Below, piece after piece: positions 11,147-33,820 of a DNA stretch of 64,000 bases. The notes under the pieces are model-generated. The model did no database searches and had not been told where the DNA came from. It was given only the letters and a program-made list of their open reading frames with translations. Origin of the DNA: Eledone cirrhosa (lineage: Eukaryota); assembly GCA_964016885.1 (NCBI GenBank), contig OZ024742.1:326554001-326618000 (forward strand), read 5' to 3'. The translations under genes and the position numbers were made by a program. How positions within the stretch are numbered: the stretch's first letter is position 1; every line of letters starts with the position of its first letter.

Positions 11147-11350
11147 TATAAAGAGTTGGGACCTACCAACTAAGCTCTTACCATTTCAACAGCTACTTCC
11201 AGAGTCTGAAACCTGTAACTAGCTGTTGAAATGGCAAGAGCTCAGCTGTCAGGTCCCAACTCTTTATAATATAACCTTTCTACTACCCAAGTGTCCATTA
11301 CTCTGTTGAGTAATGGTCTAACCAGTTTCAAACTGAATCCATCCTGATTT
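11147..11350 (+). mobile_element. Fold-back PLE 3'-terminus mini-element (half hammerhead), distant relative of 58435-58573
   Basis: Hairpin 11147-11268; right arm tagctgtt-GAAA-tggcaagagctcagctg-TC-aggtccc...ctactacccaagt...atggtc aligns by eye with 58445-58560. Confidence 0.7.
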
Positions 11351-11409
11351 ATATATACATGAAAAAAGTAGTCAGAAATAACAAAACAAATGACACAGCA
11401 CATTGAAGA

Positions 11410-11870
11410 AATATGCTTGCATGGGTTAGATGGGTTATCACATTATGATAAGTCAGATCTGGAAAGCACATCATGTTCAACGGATCTGCAATTTGGCTTG
11501 GTTTCTATGGCTGAATGCCCTTCCTAACACCAACCATGATATAGTGTGGACTGGATCCTTTTTATTATGGTACCAAAATGACCATCTCACAGGGTGAAAT
11601 GGCTGCTTTTTGCATGTCACCAACAAAACCACCTTACTGGCTGGATTTGGTGATTTTTGTTATGTCACCAGCATTACCAGTTTACAGTATGGACTGGGCA
11701 CTTTTTGCTATGTCACCAGCATTATCACCTTACAGTGTGGACTGAGCAATTTTTGTCGTGTCACCAGCACAACCACCTTAGATGATCAACTGGGTACATT
11801 TGTTGTTGTGGCACCAGATAAGCATACAACATGGACTTTGTGATTTTTGTAATGGCAACAGCATTGTGGG
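11410..11870 (-). mobile_element. Meta-domain-like SINE remnant with an internal ~48-bp tandem expansion
   Basis: ggctgaatgcccttcctaacaccaa (reverse complement of ggaagggcatccagcc), followed by about 7 degenerate tggactgggcactttttgctatgtcaccagca units. Confidence 0.55.
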
Positions 11871-14467
11871 AGATCAGATGTCAAGTATGTCCAGCTTTCA
11901 TGGGTTGTGCAGGCCAGGTGTATCAGGGCTAGGTGCAAGTATGCAAGTTTGACAATGATTTGGTGCGTGGTATATTTAGCAGGCTAGAGTGGATTATCAA
12001 AACTGGGGAGAGTGGATATGCCTAGTTGACATAGGAACTCAATACATATAAAATGTAGTGTATATTTAATTTATCAATAAAAATATCTTATGTCTTTAAT
12101 CTCCTTTTACTAATGTCTAATAAGCTTAGTTATTAGCAAAACAAGCCTGCAGCCTGCAAGATATTCACATACATATAGATACACACACACACACGCATAT
12201 ATATATATGTGTGTATATATATATATGTGTGTGTGTATATATATATATGTATACATGTATATTGCCATTTATTCCCACATACATATAAATACACAATTTA
12301 TAAGATCTTGTATAGTTCATAAATAATGTTTAATCATTTAATCTACTAGTACACAACTTCAACAACAACAACAATAGCAGCATCAGCAACAACAAAAATA
12401 CACATTTAACTATTAAACTAAAAAATTAAACCCCCCACCCCAATCATTATGTCATGCTTAATTTATGAATGCTGACAGTGACATCAACAATAAGTGAAAA
12501 AAGAAAATTAACAATAAATTAAACCATCTCCCTCATGCTTGTCAAGTTTATCAACATTTGTTCAAATCAAACCCAGTGGATTGATAGAATCAATAGATTA
12601 TTGGACAATATACCTTGCAGTATTCTGTATTTAATAATGGCTCTCTTCACTCCAAGTACAAATCATGTCAAGCCAACTTTACCCTTCATCATTCTAGGGC
12701 ACTGATTTCCAAAGTGGGTTCCACAATGGAGTATGTGGGCTTCTGTGAAAAAGTTAGAGGAGTATATTTATATTATGACCATATAAAAGTATTGGACTTT
12801 GGGGTTCCCCTAAAAGTTTCTGAACCGAAAAGTTTCCAGGATTGAAAAAGTTTGGGAGCCAATAAAATAATATCACCATTATAATGTCACCATAATGTGT
12901 TAATATGCTCCCCCTTTTTGTGAATATAAGGGCTGGTGCCTATGTATCAAATGAGGATTATTTCAAATCTAGTATTACTTGGTATTTATTGGATTACATT
13001 GGCTTCTACATTTTATTTTAACCTTGTTTTACCATATTTCTAATGAAAGACGCTGCCTATGATTTTCAAATAACTTTGAAAATATTCAAGAATTTGGAGA
13101 GAATTGATAATGTAACCAACTTTTTTGCTATTAAACTGGTGTTTTCAGCATAGCTTAACAAAAGTGTATACGTGAGATTATGATGGGAGGTTTTAGATTA
13201 ATATAACTATTGTAAAAGACACAGTTTTGTAACATAGAACCAGAGCATTTCAGACAGTTTGGTGTCAAAAAGGTTAAAGCTACTTCTTTCAATTATCCGT
13301 TTTCATCCTGCCTGCTCTCATCCATGATTTAATTTAATTACTCTTGTTGTTGATTTTGTTTTAATTATTGTTAAAATTTAAGTAGAGATAAAACTGTTTT
13401 ATACTCGAAAATAATTTGGGTTTAACCAACCAATGTAAATATTCAACATAGAACTTCCTGGAAACTTCCAAGATTATCTGGACATAAAAAATGTTAAATC
13501 CAGTACTTTTCTTCTTCTTCTTTTCTTTTTTCTAATTATATTTGTTGTGTGAATATGTTGCATTGCAGATTAAGACTGGATTTCAAAGAAATAACATCGA
13601 AAAATTATTATTCCCTCTCAAATAACCCACAACAACTACTACTACCAACACCACCATTGCTATTTCCATTCATCCTCACATATCCACACTACCATCACCT
13701 ACATTACTACCTAACATCACTACCATCACTATCTCTATCATTTCACTGATAAAATTAATTTACACATTTTGATATATCAATTAATAAGGGCATCAAGCTG
13801 TATTAAAAATACAATTGCCCCAACTAAATGCAAATAACAAAAATTTGCAAATGACTATCCCACCTATGCTAGCATAGAAATATAAATGTAAAACAGTAAA
13901 AAAAGAAAAGTGTTTGTTTTTTTTCTTTAAAATATGCAGTTGTATCTAATTGTTTTTGTTTGTTTGTTTTTGTTTTGGGGCTTTTTTCTTAATATGAAAA
14001 TGCATCAATCTATCTATTTAAATATCTGCATTCTTCTAAGTTCAAATCAAATTGAAGCCTGTATTGCTTTTTCAACCTTTCAGGATTAACAAAATAAAGT
14101 ATCATGTGAATTAGTGGAGTTGTCGGGGTATGTATCCCAACTTTCTGTGCTCTGAGTTCAAATCCCACTGAGGTCAGCTTTGCCCTTCATAGGGCTTACT
14201 ACCGAATCATTAAAGAATTAGATGAGATGCCTTGTGGTATTTATTCTAGTCTTTTCTGGTCTGATTTCAAATCCCTTTGTTGTCTACTTAGGTGCAAGAC
14301 TTAATCTGTCACCTGGATTAATAACATACCCTGACAGAGTCCACTCTGTTCCAAGCAATTGGACCAGGTCCCTAATTTGAGGATTCCTTCTTCCTTCCTC
14401 CCATCAATCATACAGGCCCTCAAAAACCCATAGGTACTGTTGTTCAATAATAATGATAATAATAATA

Positions 14468-14612
14468 ATGGTTTCTGATATAGGTACAAGGCCAGCAATT
14501 TGAAGGGGAGGGGAAACTCAATTAAATCAACCCCAGTATGTTACTGGTACTTTATTTTATCAACCCTGGAAGGATAAAAGGCAAAATTGGCCTCAGTGAA
14601 ATTTGACCTCAG
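14468..14612 (-). mobile_element. Nin/Deu-like SINE fragment
   Basis: Reverse complement of the 3559 family. Confidence 0.75.
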
Positions 14613-14859
14613 CACAATTTGGAAGAAATACCACCGGGTTTTATAGTTATCTATTATTTATATTCTGGAGTCATTTCAGTCCCAAACATAGAGGAATTCC
14701 AATGCAACAATGGAACATGTTAGAGAAAGAGAGTGATCAGTTCTTTGCTGCTTGGTTAAGTGGCTACTAAAATATTAATGATTCAATAAAAGAGTTATAA
14801 GCACAACTTTGATAGTTTAACAAATTGTAAGGCACTTTTGAGTAACTAGTAAGACAATG

Positions 14860-15020
14860 GTTTGTGTTAGGAAGGGCATCCAGATGTAAAAAATCCCAGC
14901 CAAAATACAGTTCTGTCTGAGCAAGGTACATGGCCAGCTGGTTAGACTTGACTCATGATGTGGACGACCTGTCTAACCCATGCAAGCATGGAAACATAGG
15001 CATTAAATGATGATGATGAT
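14860..15020 (+). mobile_element. Meta-domain-like SINE 3' part with (ATG)n tail
   Basis: ttaggaagggcatccag ... cccatgcaagcatggaa ... taaatgatgatgatgat. Confidence 0.6.
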
Positions 15021-15236
15021 ATATGTTTGTGTGGGTGTTGAACAATGAAAACAAAAGACAAAGTTTAGCATTTAGTCAGTTCATTGTTTTACAGTCATTT
15101 CAGTAGGCTGATTGATCATGACAAATCAATATATTGACTAATCAATATTATTAGTCTCAATACTCCAGATCCATCTCATCATTTTCCTCAGAAATAAATA
15201 TATGTGTGTGAGTGTGTATGTGTGTACATATATATA

Positions 15237-32238: not shown

Positions 32239-32323
32239 ACAGGCTGGAGATAAAATGTGTAGCAGCAAGGGCGGTGCCCCAGCATGACCTAAGCCGGATG
32301 GCTGAAACAGGTAAAAGAGTAAA
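32239..32323 (+). mobile_element. SINE 3' tail fragment
   Basis: ggcggtgccccagcatg..ggctgaaacaggtaaaagagtaaa; recognised from recall only. Confidence 0.5.
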
Positions 32324-32621
32324 TATATATATATATATATATATATATATATATATATATATATATATATATATATATATATATATATATATATATATAT
32401 ATATATATATATACATATATATATATATTTATATATATATATACACACACATATACATATATATATATATATATATATTATTAGAAAGTGAGGTTTTTTT
32501 TACAAAATGAAAAATAACCGAGATGTCCTACACGAGTGAAAGTATAAAAAAAAAAAGATGAAATCGACTATGCAACTGGAGTCTTATTTTTTTAAAAATA
32601 TATTTTTTTTTTATTTGGTTC

Positions 32622-32656
32622 CTTTATAGTTTCGCAGTTCTTCTGCTTTTCAAAAG
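32622..32656 (-). ncRNA. Hammerhead, degenerate stem III copy of 33426
   Basis: ctt-TTGAAAA-gcag aagaa ctgc-GAAA-cta-TA-aag. Confidence 0.55.
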
Positions 32657-33425
32657 TAGAGTTGAGATGGAGGGTCTGTGGTTTTTCTCACATCTGGTTG
32701 GTCTCCGAATGTTACTTGTTTTATATGGAAAAAAGTGGCTTGAAATGCCAGGTTTTTAGAGAAGTAACTTGATTGGTTGGTCAATAATTATAATAAATTT
32801 CGCGCCAGTTCTCGTTACAAAGTTCTTCAAACAAGGAGGGGGGGCACAGATTGTTCTTTCATATATGAGTGTTTGAATTTCTTTTTATTTAAAAAAAGGG
32901 GCTCACGAAGGCTTTTTTTAATTGACGTAATTTAATTGGTTATAAATTAAATTATGACTGTCACGTGAACAAGTTTTCATTAAATTTTCGCGCCCTTATT
33001 TGGAAATCTATTCTGTAGCCTTTTTCGAGAATTTTATGACAAGCAAAAGATAATGGTCAAGAGAAATGGGATGGGAGAATTGTTCTGGTTCAGTGAATAT
33101 GGTTAGTTCGCTGGGGTGTCAGTATTCAGATTTTCTATTGAATAAAGAAATTAAAGACATGTATGTTTATTTGTGTGCTTGTGTGTGTGTGTGTGTGTGT
33201 GTGTGTGTGTGTGTGTGTGTGTGTGTGTGTGTGTGTGTGTGTGTGTGTGTGTGTGTGTGTGTGTGTGTGTGTGTGTGTGTGTGTGCGTGTGTTGTTTGTG
33301 TGTGTTTCAATTTCTTTTTACTTAAAACAGGGGCTCACGAAGGCTTTTTTTCCCAATGTAAAACAAGTAACATTCAGAGACCAACCAGATGTGAGAAAAA
33401 CCACAGACCCTCCATCTCAACTCTA

Positions 33426-33461
33426 CTTTTGAAAAGCAGAAGAACTGCGAAACCGGTAAAG
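33426..33461 (+). ncRNA. Minimal hammerhead, U3-A8 core
   Basis: ctt-TTGAAAA-gcag aagaa ctgc-GAAA-ccgg-TA-aag. Confidence 0.75.
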
Positions 33462-33623
33462 GAACCAAATAAAAATATATATGTTTTTTTTAAATTAAGA
33501 CACCAGTTGCATTTTCGATTTCATCTCTTTTTCTATATATATATATGTATATGTATATATATATATATATATATATATATATATATATATATATATATAT
33601 ATATATATATATATATATATATA

Positions 33624-33820
33624 TAACGAAAGAAATGTGGTAAGGAATCAGGTGGACCATAACGCACCAAAGTACTCAATACTTAGGGTAGTAGAGTGGG
33701 TAATAGGAACGAGTAGGATCCCGACGCCTGAGCTCAAGCCGTTTCGACGGCTAATTCTGAGTCCAGAATTAGCCGCCGAAACCGCTTGAGCTCAGCCGTC
33801 GGGGTCCTACTCGTTTCTAT
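33624..33820 (-). mobile_element. Second fold-back mini-element from a family E variant
   Basis: Same layout and breakpoints as 31900-32094, but diverged in sequence. Confidence 0.88.

What the first reader, a model, noticed from the sequence alone, without database searches (positions are those of the whole stretch)
11147..33820. Three fold-back half-hammerhead mini-elements broken at the same point
Seen: 31900-32094, 33624-33820 and the much more diverged 11147-11350 are each a ~200-bp PLE terminus in TA-rich DNA. Each keeps only GAAA-stem III-GUC-stem I, stops within HHR stem II and folds back into a ~55-bp hairpin. In 33624 both arms share variants (acgagtagg/cctactcgt) absent from 31900, so its hairpin was made from, or homogenised on, its own template. 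The parent terminus is at 58387-58573. Inference: either a conserved RT stall and snap-back at the ribozyme, or an undescribed non-autonomous hairpin family. Its transcripts could be trans-cleavable substrates or dsRNA/siRNA sources against the parent.
Basis: partly seen in the sequence, partly recalled or inferred. Interest (0 to 1): 0.85.

Follow-up and report, generated by a model that had tools for sequence, protein, structure and literature searches.

The report
Penelope stubs mark a transcript start
These ~190-bp hairpins are stubs of a Penelope-like retrotransposon present in thousands of copies, likely made when two separately primed DNA copies ran off the capped start of the element's RNA, which would lie inside its own ribozyme, and were joined head to head.

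Summary
The three elements are real, and their breakpoint is a genome-wide hotspot. Each is a minimal insertion of a Hydra-clade-like Penelope-like element (PLE; 3,542-bp unit, 774-aa RT/GIY-YIG-type ORF). One 5'-truncated arm with an 80-nt tail is joined head to head to one without.

Of 100 tail-anchored loci, 53 of 60 tailed arms and 52 of 57 tail-less arms that reach -49 stop in a 13-nt window in hammerhead loop II, not in stem II. 6,412 matches have a non-parent base just before one A, in a TYAGTC initiator-like motif (partly a parent variant).

Where both arms end at that A, one-base spacers are C/G in 19 of 22 and two-sided spacers read C..G in 11 of 11, as copying a cap predicts. Where both end at the ribozyme cut site, one-base spacers are A/T in 12 of 13.

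Junctions are diverse, private variants are mostly not shared between arms, and tailed arms can start inside the tail. Snap-back, homogenisation and a master-copy family are therefore unlikely. Likely mechanism: twin target-primed reverse transcription, run-off at the RNA 5' end, end joining. No RNA data were available. The structure is known; this reading of it was not found in print.

The parts
31902..32033 (-). Element B, tail-bearing arm (+80 to -51): 80-nt tail plus hammerhead 3' half
32034..32091 (+). Element B, tail-less arm (-57 to 0), beginning at the A of the initiator-like AGTC
33626..33759 (-). Element C, tail-bearing arm (+80 to -53; its last G may instead be the other arm's cap-derived G), CCTACTCG subfamily
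33760..33817 (+). Element C, tail-less arm (-57 to 0)
11147..11202 (-). Element A (older sister family), tail-less arm, reaching the -54 equivalent
11203..11345 (+). Element A, tail-bearing arm beginning at the -57-equivalent A, with a 7-nt duplication; tail end approximate
58387..58492 (+). Complete predicted type I hammerhead of the parent terminus: U3-A8 core 58392-58398, long loop II, predicted cut 58475/58476; inferred transcription start at 58435 (A in most copies, G in this one)
   Evidence: Rfam gives no hit
58493..58572 (+). 80-nt tail, identical to the first 80 nt of the next tandem unit
55875..58572 (+). 5'-truncated copy of the parent PLE (unit positions 943-3542 plus tail, 96% identical to an intact unit), with ORF remnant to 57262

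Best explanation
The elements are minimal head-to-head insertions of a Hydra-clade-like Penelope-like retrotransposon, likely made by two separately primed cDNAs that each ran off the 5' end of the element's RNA at a probably capped transcription start inside hammerhead loop II and were then joined end to end.

Steps: (1) Inferred: Pol II starts at A(-57) in TYAGTC, with a minor start at A(-61), so the RNA begins with only the 3' half of the ribozyme. (2) Shown as fixed 3' ends at 0 and +80 in (TA)n, mechanism inferred from the published in vitro PLE work: the protein cuts both strands of a (TA)n target and primes RT at two internal sites near the RNA 5' end. (3) Inferred: on a linear RNA each cDNA runs off after about 57 or 137 nt, often adding C opposite the cap; on ribozyme-cut RNA it runs off at -16 and adds A. 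(4) Inferred: the two cDNA ends are joined by RT template jumping or host end-joining, with small losses and templated inserts. (5) Inferred: long and tandem copies need circular or multimeric RNA, which has no end at -57.
For: Hotspot: 53 of 60 and 52 of 57 arms stop in -62..-50. 6,412 matches have a non-parent base just 5' of A(-57), some from a parent variant.

Symmetric -57/-57 joints: 799 genome-wide; among the first 50, 19 single C/G, 3 single A/T, 11 C..G, 0 G..C, 8 empty, 9 other (counted by eye; p 0.001). 15 of the 19 belong to subfamilies whose read-through copies lack C at -58.

Controls: -16/-16 joints (218 genome-wide; first 50) give 12 single A/T, 1 single C/G, 1 C..G, 22 empty, 14 other (Fisher p 4e-5). 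-51/-51 joints show no CG or C-N-G spacer among 50. Sister family: 6 of 8 single C/G, 1 one-sided C in cap polarity, 1 A/T.

Motif: TYAGTC kept in 75 of 81 read-through copies while the bases upstream vary. It matches the Drosophila Inr TYAGTY (PMC6483594).

Long copies read through: 1 of 42 stop in the window, against 7 of 7 short ones. Several of the short ones show a stop at -57/-60 or -16 followed by a jump to +140..+300.

Two primings. Precedents: two internal RT starts, both strands cut and extended, predicted dimer (PMC11167929); internal Inr promoter in the pLTR (PMC2377424); untemplated G as a cap mark in L1/SVA (PMC4859970).
Against: No RNA evidence: no RNA run was listed, so the start site and cap are inferred. 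In asymmetric junctions the G excess at -57 is not significant (6 of 10 against 6 of 19, p 0.24; unbiased subset 3 of 4 against 5 of 17, p 0.25). Arm ends spread over 13 nt, which requires trimming and a second start at -61. Read-through by long copies also fits a stall model, because on a second pass round a circle the RNA is hybridised to cDNA. The base at -58 of the sister family's parent is unknown. No DPE-like motif was seen at +28..+32 (inspection). All samples are the first listed places on C1-C2, not random draws.
Confidence: 0.72

Rival explanations
1. Two cDNAs are primed as above, but RT stalls on the folded or protein-bound ribozyme in loop II rather than at an RNA end.
For: The window -62..-50 overlaps the 3' strand of a predicted apical helix in loop II. 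Read-through on a second pass could reflect RNA already hybridised to cDNA.
Against: RT passes stems III and II with few stops (6 of 66) and stops after them. A stall does not predict the polarised extra G at -57 only, nor an initiator-like motif at that base.
Confidence: 0.11
2. The -57 end is a physical RNA end made by a nuclease cut in loop II, not a transcription start, and the extra C comes from terminal transferase activity.
For: It explains run-off and template jumps equally well.
Against: At the uncapped ribozyme-cut end the added base is A/T, not C. The initiator-like motif would be a coincidence.
Confidence: 0.08
3. The stubs now spread as a SINE-like or hairpin family from their own transcripts or from master copies.
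For: Very high copy number (18,074 tails against 313 tail-ORF junctions). A tailed arm holds the inferred start and both priming sites, so trans-mobilisation of single-arm transcripts is not excluded.
Against: 33 different junctions in 37 loci. The commonest junction recurs on different subfamily backgrounds. Template jumps land in ORF sequence, so those templates were parent transcripts.
Confidence: 0.05
4. One cDNA stalls and snaps back on itself to make the hairpin; a related self-priming idea is in PMC3846280.
For: In 13 of 67 two-arm loci the tailed arm is the longer by more than 3 nt, and the arms nearly always share subfamily alleles.
Against: 25 of 67 loci have a tailed arm that starts in the tail or is clearly shorter. 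Perfect palindromes without a loop and C..G on both arms occur. Solo arms stop at the same place.
Confidence: 0.04

Closest known systems
Canonical PLE insertion with an inverted 5'-truncated copy and a tail at one end (Craig et al. 2021, PMC8557442, Fig. 2 legend; Arkhipova et al. 2013, PMC3846280)
   Same: Head-to-head arms, tail on one arm only, palindrome at the junction, (TA)n targets.
   Different: Here both arms are cut down to 57-137 nt at one hotspot, in thousands of copies, and the tail is 80 nt rather than 30-40. The 2013 paper explains such palindromes by self-priming on an antisense template; the junction data here favour two cDNAs.
Hydra clade of C-terminal EN+ PLEs (PMC8557442, section 11)
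   Same: DKT, CxCx5C linker, CxxC and CxH near the C-terminus, RW[R] motif, (TA)n insertion, hammerhead.
   Different: Unit is 3.5 kb (described as generally under 3 kb); RWR instead of RWK; no tree was built.
PAc/Poseidon internal initiation (Frangieh et al. 2024, PMC11167929)
   Same: Two internal RT start sites bracketing the tail; both strands extended; 5' truncation of the RNA shortens the product.
   Different: That study saw no reads at the ribozyme cut and found cleavage dispensable in vitro. Here 218 perfect palindromes end exactly at the predicted cut, and the start is inferred inside loop II.
L1 twin priming and the cap-derived untemplated G (PMC4859970, passages)
   Same: Two target-primed cDNAs joined in inverted orientation; extra G at a full-length 5' end.
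   Different: As recalled, L1 twin priming inverts without duplicating; here the same 57 nt are copied twice.
Non-LTR retrozymes (bioRxiv 10.64898/2026.07.22.740005, part 1 of 5)
   Same: Short PLE-derived, hammerhead-related dispersed repeats.
   Different: Retrozymes are tandem units each with a complete hammerhead; these are inverted, hold only the 3' half and are predicted unable to self-cleave in cis.

Membership tests
Penelope-like elements (parent) | Single ORF with RT and C-terminal GIY-YIG-type nuclease | tested here: met
   774-aa open frame with YRDD and AYIG motifs. Pfam gave no hit; 621 homologues at E 1e-20 or better, none with an informative name among the 120 listed.
Penelope-like elements (parent) | Partial-tandem pLTR, tail, inverted 5' copies | tested here: met
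   Tandem units of 3,542 bp, tail equal to the unit start, inverted partners.
Penelope-like elements (parent) | Type I hammerhead in the pLTR | tested here: inconclusive
   Three-stem fold with U3-A8 core, a variant described in PMC4209133. Rfam gave no hit; some subfamilies have C3/A8 or U3/G8. Cleavage is inferred only from palindromes ending at -16.
Hydra clade | DKT, CxCx5C, CxxC/CxH, (TA)n targeting | tested here: met
Hydra clade | RWK motif | tested here: inconclusive
   RWR at residue 94
Hydra clade | Placement in the clade by RT phylogeny | not tested
   No reference Hydra sequences were fetched.
Non-LTR retrozymes | Tandem units, each with a complete hammerhead | tested here: not met
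   Stubs are inverted and lack the core 5' half.
MITE-like or master-copy hairpin family | Many copies sharing one junction and length | tested here: not met
   33 junctions in 37 loci
Capped Pol II start (Inr) | Capped RNA 5' ends at the motif | not testable with these tools
   No RNA run listed; contigs cannot show starts.

The most novel reading that the evidence does not exclude
This PLE starts transcription inside its own hammerhead, so the ribozyme is split between the two ends of the primary transcript. Because RT primes just downstream of that start, linear RNA can only yield stubs, and full-length copies require ribozyme processing and circularisation (or tandem read-through). The hammerhead would then be the switch between abortive and productive retrotransposition. 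The genome keeps a base-resolution record of capped and ribozyme-cut RNA ends, and each stub may carry two outward-facing initiators.
Probability: 0.45. Interest if true: 0.8.

Novelty: new variant of a known kind. Interest (0 to 1): 0.64.

Why it matters
How PLEs make head-to-head repeats, and what their hammerheads do, are stated as open questions in PMC8557442 and PMC11167929. These stubs give genomic evidence, from thousands of independent events, for twin priming with run-off rather than self-priming, and for ribozyme-cut RNA serving as a template in vivo. They also predict a transcription start to the base. The palindrome-spacer test is cheap and can be repeated in any genome rich in PLEs. 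Roughly 7,000 near-perfect hairpins (39 of 100 sampled loci, extrapolated to 18,074 tails) may also matter for repeat annotation, for genome stability and as sources of dsRNA; those roles are untested.

Tried and rejected
A DNA similarity search of the own genome returned nothing because common words are skipped; exact patterns were used instead. The whole-window repeat finder and Rfam scan were swamped by (TA)n; the 150 of 402 Rfam rows listed were all below gathering score and none was a hammerhead. A focused Rfam scan found no hit. Pfam found nothing for the parent ORF.

No RNA holder was listed; this is no evidence on expression. Contigs of two runs of unrecorded kind from one study confirmed the depth step at about -57 and the drop after +80, but cannot show starts and may be the source sample. 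No parent of the 11147 family was found among 33 loci.

Splicing at the AG sites in loop II was considered and rejected: the ends are spread, not at AG. A second ribozyme cut at the loop II GUC was rejected by inspection: no matching stem I. A fixed RT run length was rejected: arms primed at 0, at +80 and after jumps stop at the same place. The G excess in asymmetric junctions was not significant. Two look-ups of earlier findings were empty.
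Full report
Observation. The window is G000:C3:326554001-326618000 in a 3.0-Gb genome; the host was not identified. The three elements are present as described and fold into 52-56-bp hairpins. 31900 and 33624 match the terminus at 58436-58579 at 99% and 93%, and 11147 at 69% over 148 nt, E 1.2e-8. I number positions from the last C of the terminal TTCC (0); the tail is +1..+80. 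In all three elements one arm begins at A(-57) of AGTC.

Parent. A natural tandem array on C1 gives a 3,542-bp unit with a 774-aa ORF, and the tail is the first 80 nt of the next unit. The motifs DKT, CxCx5C, CxxC, CxH and RWR and the (TA)n targets fit the Hydra clade as described in PMC8557442, section 11; no tree was built. The terminus folds as a type I hammerhead with a long loop II and a predicted cut at -17/-16. Its core is UUGAGAA in 53 of 89 read-through matches, the U3-A8 variant reported for PLEs in PMC4209133. Rfam does not detect it.

Copy numbers, exact patterns and therefore lower bounds: 18,074 tails, 8,903 hammerhead 3' halves, 2,095 5' halves of the main subfamily, 313 tail-ORF junctions.

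Breakpoints. I parsed the first 100 listed tail matches on C1. 67 have an inverted partner detected by BLAST; several more have short or diverged partners by eye. Of arms reaching -49, 53 of 60 tailed and 52 of 57 tail-less arms stop in -62..-50, whereas only 6 of 66 and 6 of 63 stop in the preceding 24 nt, which cover stems III and II. A smaller group stops near the ribozyme cut (11 of 77 tailed arms in -25..-14). In 39 of 100 loci both arms end in the window (counted by eye). In the older 11147 family, two-arm and solo copies likewise mostly begin within a few bases of the equivalent AGTC (30 best-matching of 347 hits, judged by eye). The break is thus in loop II, is a property of any arm, and does not need a hairpin.

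Not snap-back, not homogenisation, not a master copy. Among 67 two-arm loci the tailed arm starts inside the tail in 6, is shorter by more than 3 nt in 19, is within 3 nt in 28 and is longer in 13; 1 has two tails. A cDNA primed at 0 does not contain the tail, and one primed at +80 cannot template a longer partner, so two primings are needed. This matches the two internal start sites and two-strand extension shown in vitro for PAc (PMC11167929, parts 1-2 of 4). Junctions are diverse (33 types in 37 loci), and 11 carry inserts of 5 nt or more, several copied from nearby sequence. Over 46 loci, private variants are discordant 74 times and shared 9 times. Common alleles are shared 64 times and discordant 34 times, the latter mostly in old or poorly aligned copies. 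The variants of 33624 are a subfamily allele (11 of 100 tailed arms), and its arms differ at 5 of 54 sites.

Why -57. 6,412 matches have a non-parent base just before A(-57); the first 100 are 48 G, 44 C and 8 A (by eye). Many of these are explained by the other arm or by a subfamily with C at -58, so I used symmetric joints. At -57/-57 (799 loci; first 50) the spacers were 19 single C/G, 3 single A/T, 2 CG, 8 C-W-G, 1 CCAG, 8 empty and 9 other; none read G..C. Fifteen of the 19 single C/G loci are in subfamilies whose read-through copies do not have C at -58. At -16/-16 (218 loci; first 50) they were 22 empty, 12 single A/T, 1 single C/G, 6 templated GTC, 1 C-A-G and 8 other. The contrast holds after removing the 4 ambiguous loci (p 4e-5). 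At -51/-51 no CG or C-N-G spacer appears among 50. The sister family gives 6 single C/G of 8, with its parent base unknown.

An extra G 5' of a copy is the accepted mark of a reverse-transcribed cap in L1 and SVA (PMC4859970, passages). The base sits in TYAGTC, kept in 75 of 81 read-through copies and matching the Drosophila initiator TYAGTY (PMC6483594, passages). D. virilis Penelope has an internal initiator-type promoter in its pLTR (PMC2377424, passages). Against this reading: asymmetric junctions show the same direction without significance (6 of 10 against 6 of 19), 1,818 matches have a non-parent base before A(-61), partly parent variants, and there is no RNA evidence.

Long copies. Of 70 of the 313 tail-ORF junctions examined (in the second batch only the 5'-most junction of each array was taken), 49 run far into the ORF. 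Of the 42 of these that reach -49, 41 read through and 1 stops. Of the 21 short ones, 7 of 7 that reach -49 stop, and several show a stop at -57/-60 or -16 followed by a jump to +140..+300. This fits linear RNA with a physical end giving stubs and circular or multimeric RNA giving long copies, as proposed for PLE hammerheads in PMC4209133. It does not by itself exclude a stall. Contigs from two public runs show the -57..+80 piece some hundreds of times deeper than the ORF.

Mechanism. Shown: two arms with fixed 3' ends at 0 and +80 in (TA)n; two classes of 5' end, at -57 and -16, with different added bases; independent junctions. Inferred: a capped start in loop II, twin target-primed RT, run-off, joining by template jump or host repair, and a need for circular or tandem RNA for long copies. 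Untested: ribozyme activity, trans-cleavage, promoter activity of stubs, small RNAs. If stubs fire from their own centre, the transcripts point outward and would not form the hairpin; only read-through RNA would (inference).

Known and new. The head-to-head structure with one tail is a described PLE trait (PMC8557442, passages; PMC3846280, passages, which favours self-priming on an antisense template). Opposite-strand hammerhead pairs were noted in Schistosoma, and very short PLE insertions are known in Chlamydomonas (PMC9977147, passages). Retrozymes differ in being tandem and complete (bioRxiv 10.64898/2026.07.22.740005, part 1 of 5). An octopus repeat annotation (PMC13282606, passages) did not mention hairpins. 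Nine searches showed no report of a PLE start inside the hammerhead, of a cap signature at PLE inverted junctions, or of a fixed stub hotspot. The library lacks most subscription papers, and I read no supplements; those of PMC8557442 and PMC11167929 may bear on this.

Verdict: a new variant of a known kind. The object is an abortive PLE insertion; its junctions make the PLE insertion mechanism and the role of the hammerhead directly testable.

Noticed in passing
window 55237-55933: The 5' end of the long PLE copy has a 47-nt inverted piece (unit 955-1001, lacking the element's 3' end), and flank DNA 55237-55322 is repeated inverted at 55744-55829, next to a direct duplication 55034-55211/55565-55746. 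This does not fit the simple two-arm model.
   Followed up: partly
window 38421-55026: Large inverted duplication (3.1 kb at 96%, 2.2 kb at 91%) around a 648-codon PLE-like open frame at 43732-45675.
   Followed up: no
window 28635-30517 (-), 36722-38401 (-), 50920-51474 (-), 58640-59490 (+): Further PLE-like ORF fragments; 36722-38401 hits Pfam RVT_1 and GIY-YIG and has DKG rather than DKT.
   Followed up: partly
L162:7170-10000 and L163:1-742 (G000:C1 about 91.489-91.493 Mb): A 55-bp satellite of some 65 copies, made of unit positions 1697-1754, sits at the inverted junction of a five-unit tandem PLE array.
   Followed up: no
L008/L009, L013/L014, L185: Stubs lie in the TA flanks of older stubs, forming clusters.
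   Followed up: no
read-through copies: The hammerhead core varies between subfamilies (UUGAGAA, UUGAUAA, CUGAGAA, UUGAAGA); some lack a Watson-Crick 3-8 pair.
   Followed up: partly
window 15231-15320: Another ~90-bp inverted repeat (81%), not examined.
   Followed up: no
window 3562-3752, 14453-14615, 15807-15999, 16807-17021, 17592-17756, 19240-20067, 61302-61630: A dispersed ~200-bp repeat family with many partial copies, not identified.
   Followed up: no
window 20421-20620: 200-bp assembly gap of N.
   Followed up: no
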